Below, piece after piece: positions 37,597-46,073 of a stretch of DNA of 64,000 bases (within the stretch, counting starts at the first letter, position 1; each line of letters starts with the position of its first letter). This DNA comes from a virus. A program made the position numbers and the translations under genes. Under the pieces are notes generated by a model. The model saw nothing but the letters and a program-made list of their open reading frames with translations, had not been told where the DNA came from and made no database searches. The stretch covers positions 2,312-66,311 of IMG/VR virus record IMGVR_UViG_3300012964_000004. One strand, written 5' to 3'.

Positions 37597-38085
37597 TCAG
37601 CCTGTGTAAGGGGCTGTGCGGATGGGGCAATCCAAAGCAGAACACTTAGAACAATCCTCGCCGAGTTCTTCAGAGACCTTGAGATCCTTCAGTGCATCAA
37701 TGAGGGAAATGTGGCTAGGGTCATTCATGAGTTCTTTCAGCATTTGAGTGAGGGATGACAGACCACTATCGACTTTGATATTATCAATGTCAGACTTGAT
37801 GAGTTGATAGTCCTCGGCTGTTTCCTGATTGCCAAACAGATAACCGAGTTCAAAGGCAGACACAGAGAAGGCAGCTATCACATCACCATACTTATCATGA
37901 GCTTCATTGGCTCGCATACTTTTCTCGCCCAGACTATTCAGTGTTCCATTCGACATGCTAGTAGTTGCCAGAGCTTTGAGCAATCTGACAGAGAAGTTGC
38001 TCTGGATATAATCCTGCCCTATTTGAGCGAGCAGAGGGAACACACGATCTTGAATAATGCTCATTATTTTATCGAACGTATCCAT
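37597..38085 (-). CDS. hypothetical early protein
   Basis: 162 aa with GGAGG RBS and C-terminal CxxC..DCP. Confidence 0.55.
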   Translation of the reverse strand: MDTFDKIMSIIQDRVFPLLAQIGQDYIQSNFSVRLLKALATTSMSNGTLNSLGEKSMRANEAHDKYGDVIAAFSVSAFELGYLFGNQETAEDYQLIKSDIDNIKVDSGLSSLTQMLKELMNDPSHISLIDALKDLKVSEELGEDCSKCSALDCPIRTAPYTG

Positions 38086-38135
38086 TTGAGCCTCCAGTTC
38101 ATTTGTAACAGATTAGTAAAGCGGAAACATTAGAA

Positions 38136-38166
38136 TGGCATGAGTGCTCTGTCAGCACTCATGCCA
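38136..38166. terminator. perfect 13-bp intergenic inverted repeat
   Basis: TGGCATGAGTGCT-ctgtc-AGCACTCATGCCA. Confidence 0.65.
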
Positions 38167-38172
38167 ACTAGA

Positions 38173-38661
38173 CTACTCTTCGTCATCCTTATCGATCATG
38201 GATGACAGAATATCCATCATGCTAGGGTGTGTGTTGGGAAGAGCAATATTGAGGATGTCCTCTTCCTTCTCCCGCTTGGCAATCTCGGCATCAGTCAGTG
38301 TGTCTGGATAAAGCTCTTCGAGGGCGTGACTGCGTGCTGAAACCTCAGCACTGAATTGTTTGAAAGCCTCGGCAGTGGCAGGGTGAGCAGCCAGATAGCC
38401 AGTGATAAAGCTATAGTAGCCAATCACTGATGTGTTACTTTCCCGATATATTTTCTCAGTATCAGTGATTGTGCCTGTCAGATTATCCATCTTCCAGCGA
38501 TTGTTACCGAGTGCCATGATAGTCATCAATGTATGATTGCCGTGAATTTCATCAATGACTGGCTCGCCGCCAACTTTCTGGAGCATGTCGATCAAGACAC
38601 TGCCAAAGTCTTTGATCAAGCTCTCCATATACATCTTGAACCGCCTACGTGAGCAACGCAT
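38173..38661 (-). CDS. hypothetical early protein
   Basis: 162-aa acidic ORF. Confidence 0.55.
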   Translation of the reverse strand: MRCSRRRFKMYMESLIKDFGSVLIDMLQKVGGEPVIDEIHGNHTLMTIMALGNNRWKMDNLTGTITDTEKIYRESNTSVIGYYSFITGYLAAHPATAEAFKQFSAEVSARSHALEELYPDTLTDAEIAKREKEEDILNIALPNTHPSMMDILSSMIDKDDEE

Positions 38662-38687
38662 TGTATATCTCCTTTCAAACTGTCTGA

Positions 38688-38903
38688 TTATGAATTGAAG
38701 TCCCCGTCAAAGTAGCCCTCATCTTCGAGTGCATCATTGACTGCTTCTTTGACTGTAGTACCATCATCATACCAATCTCTGTAATTCTTATCTCCCAGGT
38801 CAGAGGTGGATAGACCAACACGAGCGGACATAACTTTATCAACGAGCTTCATCCATGTTACAAAGTCAACTGTGTCACTGTCAATGTTAGCTGGATCAAT
38901 CAT
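38688..38903 (-). CDS. small acidic phage protein
   Basis: W...VD......GL...DL.D..YRDWYDDG pattern. Confidence 0.6.
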   Translation of the reverse strand: MIDPANIDSDTVDFVTWMKLVDKVMSARVGLSTSDLGDKNYRDWYDDGTTVKEAVNDALEDEGYFDGDFNS

Positions 38904-38912
38904 TGTGTCGCC

Positions 38913-39296
38913 TCAATTCTCGAAACCAAACATATCCTGATCCCAGAAGCCAAACAGAGAATTGTTACCTGGGTGGGCAGAGAAAACTGACTTCTCTGGA
39001 GCAATCAAGTTGAGTTGTTCCCAGAGAGTTTCCCAAAGCAGGATGTCAATCTCCTCAGCCATGTCCCGTGCAACTTTCCTCGTCTTGCCCTGATGGATTG
39101 ACTTTGAATACAGACTGGATGAGTATCCAAAGTCACCATATCTCCTCAATATTCTGCGTGCCTCTGCTACTGACCAGTGGTCTGGCTTGACAAGTGCCAG
39201 ACAATCACTGAATGCCCTGAGCAAGTCACTGTCCCTCAGGGTATCTTTAGATACCTCATAGCCTATGTGAATTGTCTGTACTGGTTGACCAGTCAT
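38913..39296 (-). CDS. hypothetical early protein
   Basis: TLR..DLL.AF...L.APE...F.AHPG....GFW; RBS present. Confidence 0.6.
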   Translation of the reverse strand: MTGQPVQTIHIGYEVSKDTLRDSDLLRAFSDCLALVKPDHWSVAEARRILRRYGDFGYSSSLYSKSIHQGKTRKVARDMAEEIDILLWETLWEQLNLIAPEKSVFSAHPGNNSLFGFWDQDMFGFEN

Positions 39297-39400
39297 GTTG
39301 TCCTCACTTGACTGCTATACGCAGTCGATAGGATTTTACTGTCTGTCACTCTCTCGATCTACCACACAGTCCCCCACAATGCGCGTAGGGATCGAGAGAG

Positions 39401-39437
39401 AAAAAAAATAAAACTGGGGGGTCAGAGACCCCCCAGT
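39401..39437 (-). terminator. Rho-independent terminator
   Basis: GC-rich hairpin (CTGGGGG...CCCCCAG) followed on the minus strand by a long T-tract, just after the 39450 stop. Confidence 0.75.
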
Positions 39438-39449
39438 GTCGAGGGGAAA

Positions 39450-39776
39450 TTATTCCTCGTCCTCCTCCTCAGGCACGAAGTCAGGGTTGCGCAGACCAAA
39501 GGTCATAGTACCCTCAATCGTGCCAATGCCAGTAGTAGCCCAGGGAAAGACAGTGATGTTGATCATCTTGCCCTTTTTGCTTTGCTCCAGCTTGACTTTA
39601 GCAGGGTCAAGCTCGACCTCGATATGCAGCCTAGTTCCAACCAAGGCAAAGGTATGATTTGTCTTGGGGATCAGTCTGCCGTCTGGTTTGGTATCTTTAC
39701 CAATACCATATTTGGACAGATCGACTGTCTTGACAGCAACTGTCTTGCCATTTGTGGTCATGATAACTCCTTTCAT
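39450..39776 (-). CDS. first early-strand gene, hypothetical (acidic C-tail)
   Basis: AAAGGAG RBS before the internal Met (MTTNG); terminator downstream. Confidence 0.55.
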   Translation of the reverse strand: MKGVIMTTNGKTVAVKTVDLSKYGIGKDTKPDGRLIPKTNHTFALVGTRLHIEVELDPAKVKLEQSKKGKMINITVFPWATTGIGTIEGTMTFGLRNPDFVPEEEDEE

Positions 39777-39779
39777 GAG

Positions 39780-40440
39780 TAGTTATTTCCAGTCATGGAC
39801 TGACCTATCCATGTCTGGGCTGTTGTGATCGCAACAGCACGACCAACATACAAAAACTATCCAAAAAAGTCAAGTCGCATAGCCAAATCGGATCGGGTTC
39901 GCGTAGCCGAACAGCACCTGCAGCCCGCGCGCGTACATATAATGCGCGTGAAGATGAGAACGACTACGCGCAATTTGAGTTTGATATTTAGGATCAGGAT
40001 AGTACGAATACAGCCTCAAATATGGAAAGACGCATTTATAATCGGCGCGTGTTTTTGTGACAATTCGCTTACATCGTTACCGATTAGAACGATCAAGGAC
40101 TATAGGCGCTCAATCAGCCCTATTTGTGGGGGATGGATAGCAAGCGACCGCTAGATATAGTGGTTTTTGGTTTCGATAACTACACTTATCGAAAGCATAG
40201 GCGCTCTGGTGCACAAAGTAAACTTATAACAGCGGGGTTTGCTATGTATCGTTTGGTTGGGTAGGGTTCGTTTTGGTTATCAGTTCCTTGTTTTGTATCC
40301 TGGCTCATCCGCACGACTATACAAATGCTTTGCACATGACCACACAAGTGCTTTGCAAGAGTATAAAGGTTATTTTCTAATCTAATTCTCATGCACAGCC
40401 GCGCGGATCCTGTTAGCATAGACTGGAAGGAAAGGAGGTA
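39780..40440. other. gene-poor strand-switch region; candidate genome termini or origin
   Basis: About 660 bp with no credible CDS between divergent gene blocks. Confidence 0.45.
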
Positions 40441-40445
40441 AATAT

Positions 40446-40655
40446 ATGGAATGGTGGCAACTGCTTGGGATTTATCTATTAGGTCTACTGATCGGATCGC
40501 TGGTGGTTGGTTTGCTGGATTTCGGGGATGATCCAGGCTGGTATCTTTTCGCCATTTTATGGCCTCTGGCTCTGCCTGTTTTGATCCTTTATGTTCTGGC
40601 TACTCTGTCTAACGATCTGGGTTACGTTATACGCAAATTGGTGCGGGGCAAATGA
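40446..40655 (+). CDS. small 2-TM membrane protein
   Basis: AAGGAGGT RBS; two hydrophobic helices with a WP motif. Confidence 0.6.
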   Translation: MEWWQLLGIYLLGLLIGSLVVGLLDFGDDPGWYLFAILWPLALPVLILYVLATLSNDLGYVIRKLVRGK

Positions 40656-40937
40656 TGAAGCCCTGGGCGAAATGACTGTAGAGGATATTGTTCTAAAGTC
40701 GGACTTGCCAGGGCTTTTGATGAATGTGTCGCGCCTAATATCGATGGGAATGATGCCCAAAAAAATCTGGATTGGCAAGCAGTTCTATATGCCGATTATA
40801 TACATGGAATTTTCGATGAACTCGCCAAGTTTTTCTATTGGTGAAACTGGACGGTTGGTAGACATACCGTTTGAGGTCATAAACACCGATATGCGCTATG
40901 CGTTTGAATTTGAGGATGCCCTGAAAGGCGGTAAGAT

Positions 40938-41177
40938 ATGAAGTTATTCAAACGACCTATTTACAAGATCGGGGAGCACATCAAAGTCCACGATCGCAAG
41001 GCAATCAAGTTGTCGCGGCGCGTCGAAGGCCTGCGCTATTTGGCCGATCGTCTGGGCGCAGCCAGAACTAAATTCTGGCACAGGATCCGCCGCCTCTATC
41101 CAGAATTGGATGGGTTCGAGATGAACTACGATTTCACCACGGATGAACTTATTTTGATAAAAAAGAAGGAGATCTAA
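40938..41177 (+). CDS. hypothetical protein
   Basis: 79-aa ORF coupled to the next gene. Confidence 0.5.
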   Translation: MKLFKRPIYKIGEHIKVHDRKAIKLSRRVEGLRYLADRLGAARTKFWHRIRRLYPELDGFEMNYDFTTDELILIKKKEI

Positions 41178-41728
41178 TGACAGAAAAATTGATGATTGCC
41201 CAGGCCATGAATGAGGTCAAGCTGGCCGAGAAGAAAATTCAGTCCTCGCTCGAATTCATTCTGCGCAACCTCTTGCGCGAGGAAGATCGGCGCGATCCGT
41301 TCGCCAAGGATGGCACTACCCAGGAAGCCATGGTCAAGTCAGCCCTGCAGTCCATCCAGGATAATGAGAAACGCATCGTGAGCCTCAAGCTGGCTATCAA
41401 CAAGATCAACTTGGAGACCAGTTTGACTGTGGAAAGCATGAGTGCTACCATCGCGGAGTGGCTGATCTGGCGCCGCGACATCCTGCCTCCACAGAAACAG
41501 CGCCTGCAGGCGTTGGTGCAGCGCATGACTGCCGCCCTGGGCGAGCCTTCCATCGCTGCGCGGCGAACGGCTGCTGCCGCAGGCGTGCAGTTTGAGAAGG
41601 TGCAGATCATCGTCAACTTGTCCGAAAAGGATTTGATGGCAGCTATCCAGAAGCTGGATACCATCGAAGAGCGGCTGGACGCTATGCTCAGCATGGCCAA
41701 CGCCACTACTCCGATCGAAGTATTATAA
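41177..41728 (+). CDS. DIP1984-like long coiled-coil protein
   Basis: IAQA....K..I....E....P....I...K.AI.K.N..T.....TIAEW...RRD...D..L...NA.T.I pattern recalled for this family; AAGGAG RBS. Confidence 0.65.
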   Translation: MTEKLMIAQAMNEVKLAEKKIQSSLEFILRNLLREEDRRDPFAKDGTTQEAMVKSALQSIQDNEKRIVSLKLAINKINLETSLTVESMSATIAEWLIWRRDILPPQKQRLQALVQRMTAALGEPSIAARRTAAAAGVQFEKVQIIVNLSEKDLMAAIQKLDTIEERLDAMLSMANATTPIEVL

Positions 41729-41733
41729 TGAAA

Positions 41734-42016
41734 TTGGCTTTCGGTTGCGAAATCGTGAGAATGTGCTTGGAACTCAAGGGTTCGACTCCCTTACCACGCT
41801 CTGGTATGAGCACAGGCTTGAAACCTGATCGCCCCCAGTGGGCGCACCTCAACGTTCAGCGCTTATGACTCAACGATTTTCTTCTCACAGTTCAACGGGT
41901 AAAGCGCAACGGTTTTTCAAAAACCACTATTGGTCTGGTTCGGCGCAGAAATGCGCCAAATGCTCCACCACCAAGCAGGAGCACTCACAGGACGGTGGCT
42001 GCAATCTGGAAGCCAA
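41734..42016 (+). ncRNA. putative structured non-coding RNA (~283 nt) of unknown family
   Basis: 5' TTGGCTTTCGGTTGC pairs with 3' GCAATC(T)GGAAGCCAA; nested GTGAG/CTCAC and TGTGCT/AGCACA stems; T-arm hairpin, GNRA hairpin and 7-nt repeats. Confidence 0.7.
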
Positions 42017-42043
42017 AGTAATCCTTACTTAGAAGGAGGATTT

Positions 42044-43699
42044 ATGCGTAAATATGTCAAGTACCATTATGCCAGCCTTATGACTCCCTTCCCAGAAATG
42101 GAAGAGTTGGAAGTTGACAAGGTAAAGAAAAAGAACTGGCGCATCCGCCTGTCCAATCAGCACTTCGCTCTGCGCATCCATGGGGGCAACCGCATCAAGA
42201 ACCCCGCTAGGAGAAATCAGTGAGTAAACCTGTAAGTTCACCTTCGATTTCAATAGATTGGATCGAGATCACAATCAAGGATACGACTGTTTGTCTGACA
42301 GTGGATGAGGTCAGGCAATTGGCCGCACTCTTGGACGATCTGTTGGGAAAAGCGTTTTCAGGATCTTGGACGATTACCAGTGCACCTTCTGGTAACGTAA
42401 CCCAGACAGGATAAACCATGCTAGGCTTTTGGAAAGGCCGCCCAGTCTATAATATTTGCAGTTCAGACTATTTTGACCCCACGGTGTGTACTTCCACTGG
42501 GGTGGATAGTCGTTTCATGCCACCCAATGTCATGTATCCGAACTGGGAGCCAGCCCATTCTGGTAAGCTGCGCTGTGACTATTGTGGACGAAAAAATCAT
42601 GCGGATGACGAGATCTGTGAAAGCTGCGGTGCCCCCTTATGAGTAGACTGAAACTGGAGGACGTAATCAATTTTGATGAACTGCCCACCGATCGAAGGAT
42701 GGGACTCCTTTTCGTTCCCATTTCGGTTGGCAAGAACATTGAACAGTTCTGGAGTAAAGATGCGCAGGCCGATATACTCTGGCACCGCTATTATTCTGCC
42801 CTCGGCGCGACTGCAATTTTGATCCACCATCCAGTTCTTCCACCTGTAGAGGATCTTCCACAGATGGATCTGCCTGTCTATGACTGTGAGATGGTCTTTT
42901 ATAAGAACGGAACGATTGAATATATCTATAGGAGGATAGCTTGATAAATGAGGATGCCACTAAATTGCTGGAAGCTATGCGCAAGGCCAACGCCATTGTG
43001 GACGATTACTTGTATGCGCCCTTTCCTGACAGCCAGGAAGAGATTGAGGTGGAAATTACGGAGGTGATGGAAGAGCTTCATGAAATTCTCAACCCTATTG
43101 TTGAAGAATATGACAATATTGGGACGGTCTAATCGCCATGGCTCGCACAAAAGGCGCCAAGGGCAAGTACCAACCCCGCGCTAAAGGCTACATTGTCAGC
43201 TATCCAAGCCTGGGTATTCACTATTTTGTCCATGCTTTCGATGACAGTCGGGCAAAATGGCTTGTAGTCAAGCGCCTGAAGCGTGCGCGGGGCTTCACTG
43301 AGGCTATCGCACTGCGCTTTCGGGCACTTGATAACACCGTAATCACTCTAAAAATGCTGGAAGATCTTGGTTATTCACTCTTTGAGAGCCAAAAGGGGCG
43401 GAATTATTGGTTGACACATCCGCTTTGTACCTGTGAATTCTGTATGGAGCAGCTTTATGCCACACAAATTTCGTAATCCTACCCTTGAAGTGGTGGTCGT
43501 TATGTCTCCCGCTCAACTTTTGGCGATTACTGAGAAATCTCTGAAGGAATTTTCATTCGCACGCGGGCTGATACAGTGGAATTTGGCGGGTAGGAAGCCA
43601 ACTCACCTGCGTGCACGCAGGTTGGAGCTAGATAAACAGGGTTTGAAGGTCTTTCCAGAGGACGAAGCCATCCCCGCCTTCATAATTTCGGCGAAATAA
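42044..43699 (+). other. cluster of small hypothetical ORFs (42044-42223, 42220-42414, 42418-42642 zinc ribbon, 42639-42944, 42941-43132, 43138-43476, ~43457-43699)
   Basis: Head-to-tail coupled ORFs with RBSs; CDYCG..CESCGAP in 42418-42642. Confidence 0.55.
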
Positions 43700-44017
43700 T
43701 TGCTTGATCTTCGTGCTACAATCGTTATAGAATGAAAATGCCGCTGAAAATGGTTCGGCAGCCGTATATTTATGCTCAGGGAGGGTTCCCACGCCCTCCC
43801 AAGCCTTTTTATTGGCTTATTCGCCATGTTTTGATGCGCAAAATTCGTCGTTCAGGTCGAAAGTAACCGTTACTTCGCTTACATTCTTGATTTTCTTGTG
43901 CTATAATGCCATAATGAAGCTGACACACCGCTAAAGCGGTGCCAGTCTCCTTCTCAAGCGGGTCGATAGAGCACCCTATCGACCTGCTTGTATTTCTGAA
44001 CCTCTGTTCTGTATAAT
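43700..44017 (+). promoter_or_regulatory. late-gene control region with tandem promoter-like motifs, a palindromic site and hairpins
   Basis: TTGATC-18-TAGAAT (43704-43733), TGCTATAAT (~43899), TTGTAT-18-TATAAT (43988-44017), palindrome at 43861-43875, and a ~15-bp hairpin CAAGCGGGTCGATAG/CTATCGACCTGCTTG. Confidence 0.55.
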
Positions 44018-44045
44018 TATTTTGTATCCAATTAGGAGGTGCTCA

Positions 44046-44353
44046 TGATGAGATTGTATCAGCGCCCATCTGATGAATTGGTTGTGCCCAGTTCGGACTT
44101 CACTGGCATAATCACCGTTGCCACGGCAGGAACGGAAGTCCAGGGGCCAGATATTTCCGCCCCGAACGGTTTCTATATCTGTGGCCATCCGAGCAACACC
44201 CAAAACGTCTGGATTATGCCTCATGGAGAGGCTAAGACTTCGGGTTATTGCCTGGATGCCATGCAATCCATCCTGGTGCGGGTTGCTTGCCTGTATTCGC
44301 TCGACTTCGATGCCGATGTGAACGGCGAGAAACTCTGCTATATCAAAGCATAA
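44046..44353 (+). CDS. small beta-rich structural-region protein
   Basis: AGGAGG RBS; ITVATAGTEVQ...N...VWI pattern. Confidence 0.55.
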
Positions 44354-44500
44354 GGAGCTTGAGATGCGAAGGAGATTATGGAGATGGCGCGTCATTATCG
44401 CCGATAGGATCCGCATGTGGAAAAATCGGAACAAGCCGTCTGTGTCGCTGGACATCAAGGACAGTAAGCATCTTTACAAAATTACACTAAGGAGATAAAG

Positions 44501-44896
44501 ATGGCTCGATACCAAAATGATTTGATGTTGGATGCGGCGTTCGATTGGCTCCGTGCCCGTATTACGATGGAGACGGCTTCTGACAATACGGCCATGCCGA
44601 CCACCTATTCCCAGGCAACTACCATCGGCACCTACCGTCTGGCCAAGGCCTCCCTGACTTCCACGCAGATGACCCTCTCGGACTACACAGGTTCGGGTTT
44701 GGGGCGCAAGGTGACGATCGCAGCCCGCTCAGGCATCACCATTGATACCAGTGGCGTGGCCAAATACGTGAACCTGGCTGGATCAACGGGGTCGGTGCTC
44801 ATGTACATTACGGAGTGCACCACCCAACAGTTGACCACGGGCAACACCGTCAACTTCCCTGCCTGGAACATCATACTCAACGACGCCTCATCCTAA
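44501..44896 (+). CDS. virion fibre-associated structural protein
   Basis: Thr/Ser-rich with GRKVTIAA...SG.A..V.L and LTTGNTVNFPAW; precedes the fibre genes. Confidence 0.55.
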   Translation: MARYQNDLMLDAAFDWLRARITMETASDNTAMPTTYSQATTIGTYRLAKASLTSTQMTLSDYTGSGLGRKVTIAARSGITIDTSGVAKYVNLAGSTGSVLMYITECTTQQLTTGNTVNFPAWNIILNDASS

Positions 44897-45789
44897 TGAA
44901 AACAGTCGCCCTGGTTGGTTTCGCTGAAACCACACGGGACGCTGTAAATCAGTCGAAAGCTGATGAGATATGGACGGTCAACTGGGCGTACCACTATCCT
45001 TTCATCCCCAGGATTGACCGTCTATTCGAGATGCACCCCGTCTGGGTTTATCAATCCACTACCAAACCCGAGTATGTCAAGATGAAGGAACACTGGGAGT
45101 GGCTGCATCAGCCGCGCGACTATCCAGTGTACATGCTGGCTGATTTTCCAGATATACCCCGCTGTATCTCCTACCCCCTGAAAGAAGTTTCCAGATTTAT
45201 CTTTGGCAAAAGACTTCTGAAAGGAGGTGATCCGCGCTCTCCATTCCTGTCCTCTGTGGATTACATGATGGGATTGGCAATTTACGAAGGGTTCGAGCGC
45301 ATCGAACTGTATGGCGTTGAAATGGGGTCGGATACAGAATATCGCTACCAGCGGGAGGGCATAAAATTTTTCGTTGGAAATGCCGTCGCCCGTGGCATTG
45401 AAGTTTATGCGCCCGAGAATGCCACTCTGTTCTCGGGCAAAAAGTATGGCTATGAAGGAGGCCAAATGATCTTCCGCCAAGATTTGGAGCGCCTGAAGGA
45501 ACAGGTGCAAATGCGCAGGGACAAAGTGGTGGCCAGGATGCAGTTCGTGCAGGGACAGATCACAGAGGCCAATAAGGTCAAGCCAGATACCCGCAAGTTG
45601 CAGCGAGAACACAGCAAGGCTAAAAAGGTGCTGGTGATGGAATATACCAAAGCCAGGGAGGATGTGCTGTTGGTGTCGGCTTTCGAGCAGGTGCTGGAAT
45701 ATCTAATCAAAGAGCTTGATTTGGAAGAACATCTGACCCTCGAGATCCAAAATCCGCTGCTTGAGTTGGATTGGGAGGACACCTTGTAA
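44896..45789 (+). CDS. MptE/DUF115/sialyltransferase-like protein (paralogue of 8978)
   Basis: MKTVALVGF...EIWTVN...RLFEMH...SSVDYMMGLAIYEGFERIELYGVEM..DTEYRYQR; TAATG coupling defines the start. Confidence 0.6.
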   Translation: MKTVALVGFAETTRDAVNQSKADEIWTVNWAYHYPFIPRIDRLFEMHPVWVYQSTTKPEYVKMKEHWEWLHQPRDYPVYMLADFPDIPRCISYPLKEVSRFIFGKRLLKGGDPRSPFLSSVDYMMGLAIYEGFERIELYGVEMGSDTEYRYQREGIKFFVGNAVARGIEVYAPENATLFSGKKYGYEGGQMIFRQDLERLKEQVQMRRDKVVARMQFVQGQITEANKVKPDTRKLQREHSKAKKVLVMEYTKAREDVLLVSAFEQVLEYLIKELDLEEHLTLEIQNPLLELDWEDTL

Positions 45790-46073
45790 TGGCCACCCAG
45801 ACGTACATCCACACATCCATTGGGGATGGAGTAGTGGTTGAGTTTGATGTCAACACCGCCAACTGGCGCATGTCTCAGGTGCGGTGTATCAATCAATCCG
45901 CTTGGTCAGTCCATGCTGCTATCTATGAAGGAGGCGTATTGCGCTTTGAGGCTACAGCACCTGGATTTCAGACAACCAGTTGGAATACGACTGGAGTTCA
46001 GTTAGGTTGGGATCCAGTGGATGGGGGTTTGATGATGGGTAATTACACCATGCACGTAAGATTTCCAGCATAA
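45789..46073 (+). CDS. hypothetical protein
   Basis: TAATG-coupled ORF starting MATQTY. Confidence 0.5.
   Translation: MATQTYIHTSIGDGVVVEFDVNTANWRMSQVRCINQSAWSVHAAIYEGGVLRFEATAPGFQTTSWNTTGVQLGWDPVDGGLMMGNYTMHVRFPA

What the first reader, a model, noticed from the sequence alone, without database searches (positions are those of the whole stretch)
41177..42016. Coiled-coil protein gene plus a large structured ncRNA: candidate ribonucleoprotein system
Seen in sequence: an RNA-like element begins 5 nt after the stop of the 183-aa coiled-coil gene. Its ends pair (41734-41748 with 42001-42016, about 15 bp with one bulge and two G-U pairs). Nested inside are GTGAG(41755)/CTCAC(41984), TGTGCT(41762)/AGCACA(41809), a tRNA-like T-arm AAGGG-TTCGACT-CCCTT (41776-41792), TACCA/TGGTA, CAGG-CTTGAAA-CCTG, CGCCC/GGGCG, GGTTTTT/AAAAACC, GGCGCA-GAAA-TGCGCC (GNRA) and TGCTCC/GGAGCA. 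The next RBS starts right after the closing stem. From recall: the protein resembles the uncharacterised DIP1984-like family, and T-arm mimicry is a feature of bacterial Y RNAs. Inference: the gene and RNA form a co-transcribed module (RNP, decoy/anti-defence RNA, or type III toxin-antitoxin-like pair). I cannot assign it to a named RNA family.
Basis: partly seen in the sequence, partly recalled or inferred. Interest (0 to 1): 0.9.

Follow-up and report, generated by a model that had tools for sequence, protein, structure and literature searches.

The report
New phage RNA with partner protein
A roughly 280-base folded RNA, built around a pseudoknot, a tRNA-derived arm and a run of seven-base repeats, always travels with one small helical protein gene in many phages, probably including T5-like phages, and matches no described RNA family.

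Summary
Window 41734-42016 is a structured RNA that starts 5 nt after the stop of the 183-aa gene.

- **RNA family:** 47 distinct relatives share five helices, one a pseudoknot. 89.5% of cells pair against 64.3% in shuffles (0 of 500 reach it), and 32 of 37 pairs show compensatory changes.
- **Layout:** terminal stem, GCGAA joint, P2, a variable insert, a 7-nt-periodic AAAG array, then a pseudoknotted 3' core with a GNRA hairpin. The insert is a real tRNA in 22 of 51 loci and a T-arm remnant in the window.
- **Known families:** Rfam 15 and ARAGORN find nothing.
- **Gene link:** the RNA accompanies the phrog_1491 / DIP1984-fold gene in 70 of 85 protein-first loci. Most misses are cut contigs or divergent copies. 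It also accompanies it in 12 of 13 RNA-first loci. No other neighbour is conserved.
- **Expression:** RNA-library contigs from two studies cover only 41773-41993.
- **Cultured phages:** by eye the module is also present in T5-like, rV5-like, Acinetobacter T4-like and other phages, unannotated. My covariance model does not reach them.
- **Function:** unknown. My best guess is a ribonucleoprotein.
the scan had flagged the heptamers in this same window before.

The parts
41177..41728 (+). 183-aa helical protein gene: phrog_1491, DIP1984-like fold, distant from Pfam DUF6847
   Evidence: ORF. phrog_1491 E 4.3e-16. DUF6847 scores 18.8 bits against a cut-off of 27. AF2 model pLDDT 93.8. 3kdq Z 11.3. 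Predicted homodimer ipSAE 0.76 against a best control of 0.00.
41734..42016 (+). Whole structured RNA, from the P1 5' end to the P1 3' end
   Evidence: Alignment A2 of 47 relatives and pair counts. No Rfam or ARAGORN match.
41734..41748 (+). P1 5' strand
   Evidence: Pairs with 42001-42016. 10 of 14 family pairs show changes on both sides.
41749..41754 (+). Joint after P1: GAA of the near-invariant GCGAA, plus ATC
   Evidence: G13, C14 and G15 are invariant and A16, A17 are at least 90% conserved in A2.
41755..41759 (+). P2 5' strand (GTGAG)
   Evidence: Pairs with 41984-41988. P2 covaries at 5 of 5 pairs. The closest relative, L211, has CGAGG/CCTC(A)G at the same place.
41760..41846 (+). Variable insert holding a tRNA-derived T-arm (41776-41792) and local hairpins
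   Evidence: ARAGORN calls a tRNA at the same site in 22 of 51 related loci. The consensus GGTTCGAnTCC sits in the A2 insert columns. ARAGORN finds no tRNA in the window.
41848..41918 (+). Array of 7-nt-periodic units (YTCAACG here, AAAGYTN in most relatives)
   Evidence: Base identity at lag 7 is 0.43, at lag 14 0.37, at lags 21-22 0.34-0.35, against 0.18-0.33 at lags 2-6 and 8-12. The commonest unit spacing is 7, seen 89 times.
41919..41928 (+). A-rich joint (AAAAA) and pseudoknot 5' strand (CCACT, 41924-41928)
   Evidence: Pairs with 41994-41998. 99.1% of cells pair and 4 of 5 pairs covary.
41942..41957 (+). H1 hairpin capped by a GNRA tetraloop (GAAA)
   Evidence: 8 of 8 pairs covary. Loops are GAGA, GAAA, GCAA or GUAA in most relatives.
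41961..41983 (+). H2 hairpin (TGCTCC / GGAGCA)
   Evidence: 5 of 5 pairs covary.
41984..41988 (+). P2 3' strand (CTCAC)
   Evidence: seen directly in the sequence.
41994..41998 (+). Pseudoknot 3' strand (GGTGG), followed by the conserved CTGC
   Evidence: G264, C265 and G267 are invariant in A2.
42001..42016 (+). P1 3' strand with one bulged T (42007)
41773..41993 (.). Stretch covered by contigs from two metatranscriptome runs
   Evidence: X6 covers 41773-41990 and X7 covers 41797-41993, both with 0 differences. Neither covers the flanking coding sequences. Contigs show neither strand nor true ends.

Best explanation
Shown:
- 41734-42016 encodes a member of a previously unnamed family of phage structured RNAs, about 220-350 nt long.
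- A compact core is made from both ends of the RNA: P1, a conserved GCGAA/GGCUGC joint, P2, a pseudoknot that crosses P2, a GNRA-capped hairpin and a second hairpin.
- The core holds out a variable arm and a run of about 4-9 units with a 7-nt period. The arm is a real tRNA in many phages and a T-arm remnant here.
- The RNA is inherited as a unit with the gene just upstream, which encodes a DIP1984-fold, phrog_1491 protein.

Inferred:
- The gene and RNA are co-transcribed, and the RNA is cut out as a stable species. Where a tRNA is embedded, host tRNA-processing enzymes would release it. That would leave two RNA pieces held together by P1 and P2.
- Dimers of the neighbouring protein load side by side on the heptamer array, while the folded core sets the register. 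This resembles how TRAP or HutP read evenly spaced triplets.
- The resulting particle acts on tRNA or translation during infection. The evidence for this is the setting: the module sits in or beside phage tRNA islands.
For: - **Structure:** 89.5% of cells pair against 64.3% in shuffles (0 of 500 reach it). The covariation score is 0.695 against 0.219. Slid controls pair at 38-48%.
- **Link, starting from the protein:** an nhmmer profile of the 3' domain hits 70 of 85 protein-first loci. Of the 15 misses, 7 are cut by a contig end. Four more are hit by covariance model R1 at E 2e-13 to 2e-4 (L158, a duplicate of L157, was not given to it). L130 is hit weakly at E 0.006.
- **Link, starting from the RNA:** in an RNA-first pattern scan, 12 of the 13 loci that hold the RNA hold the gene. 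The 13th locus is cut at its start.
- **Neighbours:** no other gene is conserved among 77 distinct loci; the next cluster is found in 6.
- **Embedded tRNA:** a tRNA of varied identity lies at one fixed site in 22 of 51 loci.
- **Repeats:** 7-nt periodicity.
- **Protein:** the model supports a homodimer, ipSAE 0.76 against a best control of 0.00. That mark was reached by 20 of 30 proteins solved as pairs and 1 of 23 solved as single chains. Runs agree in at least 98% of contacts and partner pLDDT is at least 89. Eleven alignment columns are at least 80% K/R.
- **Expression:** RNA-library contigs from two studies cover only the RNA.
- **Transcription signals:** no promoter-like site lies just before the RNA on the + strand and no terminator-like site just after it.
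Against: - No test of RNA binding was possible.
- The protein is near neutral (median pI 7.8; the window's copy 6.4) and has no known RNA-binding fold.
- Chromosomal DUF6847 genes lack the RNA. None of 19 loci gave an nhmmer 3'-domain hit at E <= 1, so the fold does not need this RNA.
- The dimer pass may reflect memory of the solved relative 3kdq.
- Thermodynamic folding rates the array only slightly more open (0.43 unpaired) than the insert (0.40), and more open than the core (0.31).
- The RNA contigs miss P1 and the 5' 40-60 nt, give no strand, and could in principle come from DNA carried over in the library.
- Model R1 gives only E 0.04-0.6 in cultured phages.
Confidence: 0.5

Rival explanations
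1. The RNA works alone, as proposed for GOLLD and ROOL. It would be a self-assembling scaffold or a ribozyme tied to tRNA islands. The upstream protein would be a helper or merely a co-regulated neighbour.
For: - The core is complex, with a pseudoknot, a GNRA loop and near-invariant joint bases.
- tRNAs lie inside the RNA, as they sometimes do in the GOLLD linker region (passages of 10.1101/2024.12.08.627333).
- The strand order of P1, P2 and the pseudoknot is the same as P1, P2 and P4 of RNase P (that comparison is from recall).
Against: - The tight gene-RNA adjacency across very diverse phages is not a feature described for GOLLD or ROOL.
- At 220-350 nt it is far smaller.
- No GOLLD, ROOL or RNase P model matches at E <= 10.
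Confidence: 0.2
2. The RNA is a decoy or sponge. The heptamer array and the tRNA-like arm would soak up a conserved host RNA-binding factor, or a tRNA-targeting defence nuclease. The phage protein would act as a chaperone or co-factor.
For: - Repeat arrays are typical of sponge RNAs such as CsrB (recall).
- The module lies among small early-type genes in the window and in tRNA islands of cultured phages.
- Phage tRNAs are known to counter tRNA-cutting defences (PMC11464382, abstract and passages).
Against: - The unit (AAAG plus three bases) matches no binding motif I could name.
- The hosts implied by the genome bins span many phyla, so the target would have to be universal.
Confidence: 0.15
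3. It is a cis-acting processing or stability element of the operon transcript. It could be a 3' UTR controlling the upstream gene, or a maturation platform for tRNAs, rather than a trans-acting RNA.
For: - It starts about 20-30 nt after the stop codon in most loci.
- No own promoter or terminator was detected.
- tRNAs lie within or next to it.
Against: - In L159 and L174 the RNA lies upstream of the gene.
- This much conserved tertiary-type structure and a repeat array are excessive for a UTR.
- The RNA contigs do not extend into the coding sequence.
Confidence: 0.08
4. The repeats act at the DNA level, as iterons of an origin, operator or centromere-like site bound by the neighbouring protein.
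For: - Arrays of 7-bp heptads are known protein-binding sites on DNA, for example the omega repressor of pSM19035 (recall).
- The protein is predicted to dimerise.
Against: - Compensatory changes in five helices flanking the array, including a pseudoknot, show selection on a single-stranded fold.
- The embedded tRNAs show that the region is transcribed.
- RNA-library contigs cover the region.
Confidence: 0.04
5. It is a type III toxin-antitoxin-like pair: a protein toxin neutralised by a repeat RNA.
For: A protein gene next to an RNA that carries repeats.
Against: - The repeats are 7 nt, not about 36 nt (the ToxI figure is from recall).
- The RNA lies downstream of the gene and is a single folded unit.
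- The module is carried by lytic phages in tRNA islands.
Confidence: 0.03

Closest known systems
GOLLD and ROOL RNAs (large ornate phage/prophage RNAs)
   Same: They are encoded by phages, often near tRNA islands. tRNAs are sometimes present inside the GOLLD linker region. They have complex pseudoknotted folds and unknown function (passages read in 10.1101/2024.12.08.627333, and PMC5737381).
   Different: No match to either Rfam model at E <= 10. This RNA is 220-350 nt, against about 580 to over 800 nt. It has a heptamer array and an always-adjacent protein gene, which the passages I read do not describe for GOLLD or ROOL.
Bacterial Y RNA / YrlA with Ro (Rsr)
   Same: A tRNA-like module is enclosed by a stem formed from the 5' and 3' ends (recall of the YrlA architecture).
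   Different: No TROVE/Ro gene in the complete genome and no Y RNA model match. Many members carry a genuine tRNA with an anticodon rather than a mimic.
tmRNA
   Same: It combines a tRNA-type module, pseudoknots and an open single-stranded stretch (recall).
   Different: ARAGORN finds no tmRNA. The heptamer period is not a reading frame, and UAA is frequent inside the units.
RNA targets of TRAP and HutP (evenly spaced triplets read by ring oligomers)
   Same: A short A/G-rich core recurs at a fixed spacing. HutP sites are NAG plus a 4-nt spacer, which is also a 7-nt period (recall).
   Different: The neighbouring protein is an all-helical bundle with no detectable similarity to TRAP or HutP. 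Binding was not tested.
RNase P RNA catalytic core
   Same: The same order of strands: P1, P2, an A-rich joint before a pseudoknot strand, a GNRA hairpin, then the P2 3', pseudoknot 3' and P1 3' strands (recall of the RNase P layout, compared).
   Different: No RNase P model matches at E <= 10. The joints are much shorter and the signature sequences are absent.
DIP1984 / DUF6847 proteins (PDB 3kdq)
   Same: The same fold over the full length. The sequence profile of the phage family shades into PF20935 at its distant end.
   Different: The window protein scores below the Pfam cut-off. The chromosomal DUF6847 loci examined have no such RNA.

Membership tests
Any Rfam 15 family | Covariance model match at the gathering score, or at least E <= 10 | tested here: not met
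   The whole window gave 0 matches at gathering score. 41500-42250 at E <= 10 gave only two chance-level hits outside or antisense to the element. Cultured-phage loci gave only tRNAs at E <= 1.
Y RNA / YrlA-Ro system | Ro (TROVE-domain) protein encoded with the RNA | tested here: not met
   PF05731 was not found in the complete 66,311-bp genome. The control search hit D. radiodurans and B. thetaiotaomicron.
Y RNA / YrlA-Ro system | tRNA-like module closed by a terminal stem | tested here: met
   P1 encloses an insert that holds a T-arm or a full tRNA.
GOLLD / ROOL | Match to RF01998 / RF03087 (accession numbers from recall) | tested here: not met
   No match at E <= 10.
GOLLD / ROOL | Phage-borne, near or containing tRNAs | tested here: met
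   Literature passages.
tmRNA | tRNA-like domain plus a tag reading frame, as detected by ARAGORN | tested here: not met
   0 genes in the window. No tmRNA in 51 related loci.
RNase P RNA | Match to the bacterial or archaeal RNase P models | tested here: not met
   Only the strand order resembles it.
Type III toxin-antitoxin (ToxIN-like) | Tandem ~36-nt RNA repeats upstream of an endoribonuclease toxin gene (recall) | tested here: not met
   The units have a 7-nt period. The RNA is downstream of the gene in all but two loci. No nuclease family was detected.
Pfam DUF6847 (PF20935) | Score at or above the gathering cut-off of 27 bits | tested here: not met
   18.8 bits, E 0.0016. The genome holding L194 gave no PF20935 match at E <= 0.001.
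DIP1984-like fold | Full-length structural match to 3kdq | tested here: met
   VIA Z 11.3, rmsd 6.0, 152 of 152 residues aligned; the next hit has Z 8.4 over 72 residues. Foldseek probability 1.0, TM 0.55-0.64, E 2e-3.
PHROG phrog_1491 | Profile match | tested here: met
   E 4.3e-16 over residues 1-120. The Acinetobacter phage homologue scores E 1.7e-35 over its full length.
The RNA family defined here, cultured-phage branch | Significant hit of the 3'-domain covariance model R1 | tested here: inconclusive
   In 12 cultured-phage loci there were only weak hits (E 0.036-0.6). Eight loci have their hit in the gap on the gene's strand. The architecture is seen by eye. Covariation among 4 Acinetobacter phages: 99% of cells paired and 8 pairs with compensatory changes.

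The most novel reading that the evidence does not exclude
This would be a widespread, so far unrecognised phage ribonucleoprotein. A pseudoknotted RNA clamp carries a tRNA, or its remnant, and a heptamer track. Dimers of a DIP1984-fold protein line up on that track. The particle would be made by hundreds of cultured phages, including T5-like, rV5-like and Acinetobacter T4-like phages, and would act on host tRNA or translation, or on defences aimed at them.
Probability: 0.35. Interest if true: 0.9.

Novelty: categorically new. Interest (0 to 1): 0.82.

Why it matters
- Few new classes of bacterial or phage structured RNA have this much covariation support, and fewer come with a dedicated protein gene.
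- If the by-eye reading of cultured phages holds, a conserved and unannotated RNA sits in T5-like phages. In 440 records the region is at least 80% identical to the AKFV33 copy. Of the 60 rows listed, 52 show no annotated feature and none shows an RNA feature. It would also explain hundreds of genes now labelled 'tail fiber protein'.
- That makes the question directly testable in E. coli K-12.
- It gives a second, smaller example beside GOLLD of a phage RNA that carries tRNAs inside its fold. That could help explain why such RNAs cluster with tRNA islands.
- It offers a first functional lead for the DIP1984/DUF6847 fold.

Tried and rejected
- **GenBank phages by DNA:** blastn with the window region found nothing.
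- **GenBank phages by protein:** tblastn with one consensus-like protein found nothing. The window protein gave only E 0.06 hits. Those became meaningful only after profile checks.
- **PDB sequence search** with the first protein alignment: nothing.
- **NCBIfam:** only a chance-level hit.
- **Architecture-finding script on cultured loci:**
  - Clear for L254 (20-bp P1, 0 of 40 shuffles reach it) and L257 (18 bp, 0 of 40).
  - Weak for L252 (3 of 40), L259 (6 of 40) and L255 (5 of 40).
  - It failed or picked other sites in L248-L251, L253, L256 and L258, because it required CTG/CTA directly after the pseudoknot.
- **Lag-7 window score:** it did not separate RNAs from control loci, so I dropped it.
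- **nhmmer profiles:** they do not reach cultured phages, apart from one 5' hit in L257 at E 0.023.
- **Unpaired-probability analysis:** only marginal.
- **Parts of the 8-kb stretch without RNA contigs:** these prove nothing. The DNA run X3 gave one partial piece only.
- **Literature searches that found no description of this RNA or protein:** 'DUF6847' (0 papers); 'DIP1984' (1 unrelated paper); 'T5.085'; heptamer repeats + noncoding RNA + phage; structured RNA + phage + tRNA + covariation; T5 + noncoding RNA / RNA-seq / small RNA.
- **Possible prior listing:** PMC10690425 lists 8,495 candidate structured RNAs from IMG/VR. I read only passages of it. Its supplementary tables were not opened, so an unnamed entry overlapping this RNA cannot be excluded.
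Full report
**Setting.** The window is bases 2312-66311 of a complete 66,311-bp virus record with direct terminal repeats. The 183-aa ORF at 41177-41728 lies fourth in a rightward block of small genes that begins after a strand switch near 40.2-40.4 kb.

**Is the structure real?** On its own the sequence folds only modestly better than shuffles: z = -1.97 on the + strand and -0.96 on the - strand. Rfam 15 finds nothing at gathering score in the whole window. At E <= 10 in 41500-42250 it finds only two chance-level hits. ARAGORN finds no tRNA or tmRNA. The decisive evidence is comparative.
- Relatives of the protein (27-40% identical) were collected from viral contigs (6 loci; 56 loci), species-representative genomes (12 loci, all metagenome bins) and metagenome contigs (17 loci).
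- Reading the DNA after each gene showed the same layout again and again.
- I aligned 47 distinct full-length copies (A2). L150 and the loci that nhmmer missed were left out. I then counted pairs for a structure written by eye.
- Across 37 pairs, 89.5% of cells pair, against 64.3% after shuffling (0 of 500 shuffles reach it). 32 pairs show changes on both sides. The covariation score is 0.695 against 0.219. Sliding the partners by 1-3 columns drops pairing to 38-48%.
- Each helix is supported: P1 (10 of 14 pairs compensatory), P2 (5 of 5), the pseudoknot (4 of 5, 99.1% paired), H1 (8 of 8) and H2 (5 of 5).
- Caveat: I derived the structure from these same sequences, and related sequences can beat shuffles without structure. 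The slid controls and the number of pair types argue against that here.

**Anatomy, 5' to 3'.**
- P1 5' strand.
- A near-invariant GCGAA joint.
- P2 5' strand.
- A variable insert.
- A run of units with a 7-nt period.
- An A-rich joint, followed by five bases that pair with the five bases just before a conserved CUGC.
- H1, which is capped by a GNRA loop in most members.
- H2.
- P2 3' strand, pseudoknot 3' strand, then P1 3' strand.

P2 and the pseudoknot cross each other. Window coordinates are listed under parts. His four hairpins in the insert lie in non-alignable sequence.

**The insert is a tRNA site.** ARAGORN calls a tRNA inside the RNA, at the same place, in 22 of 51 related loci. Identities include Ile, Leu, Arg, Thr, Glu, Val, Tyr, His, Lys, Ser and Gln, and some have odd anticodon loops. 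The rest keep a T-arm-like hairpin or other hairpins; the window keeps a T-arm at 41776-41792. Further tRNAs often flank the module. So the 'T-arm mimicry' is a decayed or replaced embedded tRNA.

**The repeats.** In the array columns of A2, base identity peaks at lag 7 (0.43), lag 14 (0.37) and lags 21-22 (0.34-0.35), against 0.18-0.33 at lags 2-6 and 8-12. The commonest spacing between units is 7 (89 cases), then 8 (27) and 14 (25). There are 4-9 units per RNA with a median of 6. The usual unit is AAAG plus Y-U-N; in the window it is CAACG-like. The closest protein relative, L211, uses AAAG, so the difference is not tied to the protein subfamily. Thermodynamic folding rates the array only slightly more open than the rest.

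**The link to the gene.**
- nhmmer profiles of the 3' domain hit 70 of the 85 protein-first loci. Some loci are the same contig held in two collections; 77 are distinct.
- Of the 15 misses, 7 end less than 340 nt after the gene.
- L146, L157, L224 and L227 are hit by covariance model R1 at E 2.4e-13 to 1.6e-4. L158, a duplicate of L157, was not given to it.
- L130 is weak (E 0.006), L182 weaker (E 0.29), and L180 is not hit at E <= 1. By eye, L130, L180 and L182 carry divergent versions.
- In L159 and L174 the RNA lies upstream of the gene.
- Starting from the RNA instead, a 22-base pattern of the 5' motif found 16 loci. 13 of them have the 3' domain, and 12 of those have the gene. The 13th, L201, begins 140 nt before the RNA and comes from a contig where the gene is adjacent (L168). 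The other 3 are one chance match inside a coding sequence. Eleven of the 13 contigs were already known from the protein scan, so this is a small and partly redundant sample.
- All-against-all comparison of flanking ORFs in 77 loci found no other conserved neighbour; the next cluster occurs in 6 loci.

**The protein.**
- It matches phrog_1491. That family's 'tail fiber' label is unsupported by anything seen here.
- It scores below the cut-off for DUF6847.
- The AlphaFold model is confident (pLDDT 93.8): a helical bundle with a small sheet at one end.
- The only full-length structural match is 3kdq, an uncharacterised C. diphtheriae protein.
- All 126 sequence relatives found are unnamed environmental proteins. 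The distant end of the list carries PF20935.
- Canonical DUF6847 genes occur in 19 of 301 genomes of one phylum; this count includes the unpublished G150. The 19 loci examined, with G150's left out, have no 3'-domain hit at E <= 1. Four of them were also clean with R1.
- A homodimer is supported by the complex test: 0.76 against a best control of 0.00. That mark was reached by 20 of 30 proteins solved as pairs and 1 of 23 solved as single chains. Runs agree in at least 98% of contacts and partner pLDDT is at least 89. This may reflect likeness to 3kdq.
- The family is near neutral in charge, with 11 conserved basic columns.

**Expression.** Five DNA runs, which may be the source of the contig, hold the stretch. 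Two wetland metatranscriptome runs from two studies hold 12-13% of its words. Laid on 38000-46000, their contigs cover 41773-41990 and 41797-41993 without a difference. They cover nothing of the flanking genes. The only other pieces are at 44456-44679 and at 43532-43858. Contigs give no strand, level or true ends, and DNA carry-over cannot be excluded. This is supportive, not proof.

**Cultured phages.**
- Weak tblastn hits led to Acinetobacter T4-like phages. Their 'tail fiber protein' gene is phrog_1491 (E 1.7e-35) and matches my alignment by hhalign (probability 94.8%, E 5e-8 over 76 columns).
- That gene sits inside the tRNA island and is followed by an unannotated gap of 310-400 nt.
- Homologues occur in 70 records with this query and 771 records with the Salmonella phage 7-11 query. 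They include T5-like phages (the T5.085 homologue), rV5-like, Pseudomonas, Bacillus, Vibrio, Klebsiella, Erwinia jumbo and other phages.
- All 12 loci I opened have an unannotated gap of 310-555 nt after the gene. By eye, most have a terminal stem, a heptamer array and an 'AAAnCC' strand whose next 5-6 bases pair just before CUG or UGG. The terminal stem is unclear in L255, L256 and L258.
- Among 4 Acinetobacter phages, 99% of cells pair, 8 of 25 pairs have compensatory changes, and slid controls pair at 18-45%. That is only 4 sequences, and I wrote the structure from them.
- The T5-like RNA region is at least 80% identical in 440 records. Of the 60 rows listed, 52 show no annotated feature, 7 show a hypothetical protein or a promoter, 1 record has no annotation, and none shows an RNA feature.
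- Against this: model R1 gives only E 0.036-0.6 in these loci, nhmmer does not reach them, and Rfam shows only tRNAs.
- I rate membership of the cultured-phage RNAs in the same family at about 0.7.

**Comparison with known systems.** GOLLD and ROOL are the nearest kind: phage RNAs near tRNA islands, with tRNAs sometimes in the GOLLD linker (ROOL description). This RNA shares no detectable sequence or model similarity with them, is much smaller, and has a repeat array and a dedicated gene. Y RNA, tmRNA, RNase P and type III antitoxins each fail a defining test (see Membership tests). I found no description of it in eight literature searches. The large 2023 catalogue of viral candidate RNAs (PMC10690425) may list a piece of it in supplements that I could not open.

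**Verdict.** The RNA family and its linkage to the gene are shown. Expression is weakly supported. The ribonucleoprotein mechanism and any role in tRNA biology or translation are inference.

Noticed in passing
window 43532-43858 and 44456-44679: These are the only other pieces of the 8-kb stretch covered by the two RNA-library runs. The first lies in and after the 88-aa ORF, next to terminator-like hairpins at 43779-43800 and 43955-43990. The second is at the start of the 131-aa gene. They may be further abundant RNAs.
   Followed up: no
GenBank phage records, e.g. L248:2351-2917, L252:1480-2121, L254:1498-2136: Hundreds of phrog_1491 genes are annotated 'tail fiber protein'. Nothing in fold, context or family supports that label.
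   Followed up: partly
L248:3234-3304 (Acinetobacter phage Apostate): Rfam finds a tRNA (53 bits) that the record does not annotate. It lies between the RNA and tRNA-Arg.
   Followed up: no
L248:2038-2274 and L251:891-1127: In Acinetobacter T4-like phages, a small RF-1-domain (peptidyl-tRNA hydrolase-like) gene sits directly upstream of the phrog_1491 gene. This adds to the translation-related setting.
   Followed up: no
L180, L182, L217, L255: A sub-branch has TAGCGTAAA instead of YAGCGAAG at the 5' joint. In L180 and L182 the units are CAAGG/GAAGG-type rather than AAAG.
   Followed up: partly
L159:1529-1812 and L174:2185-2453: In two related loci the RNA lies upstream of the protein gene instead of downstream.
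   Followed up: no
L204, L205, L209: The 22-base 5' motif occurs by chance inside a lysine/arginine-rich coding sequence of one phage group. It has no 3' domain and no partner gene.
   Followed up: yes
window 42418-42642: A 74-aa ORF two genes after the RNA carries a C-terminal zinc-ribbon signature, below the Pfam cut-offs.
   Followed up: no
A2 columns about 301-340: Many arrays are split into two blocks by a short conserved spacer (TTCAGGATTT-like). In some members it can form a small hairpin.
   Followed up: no
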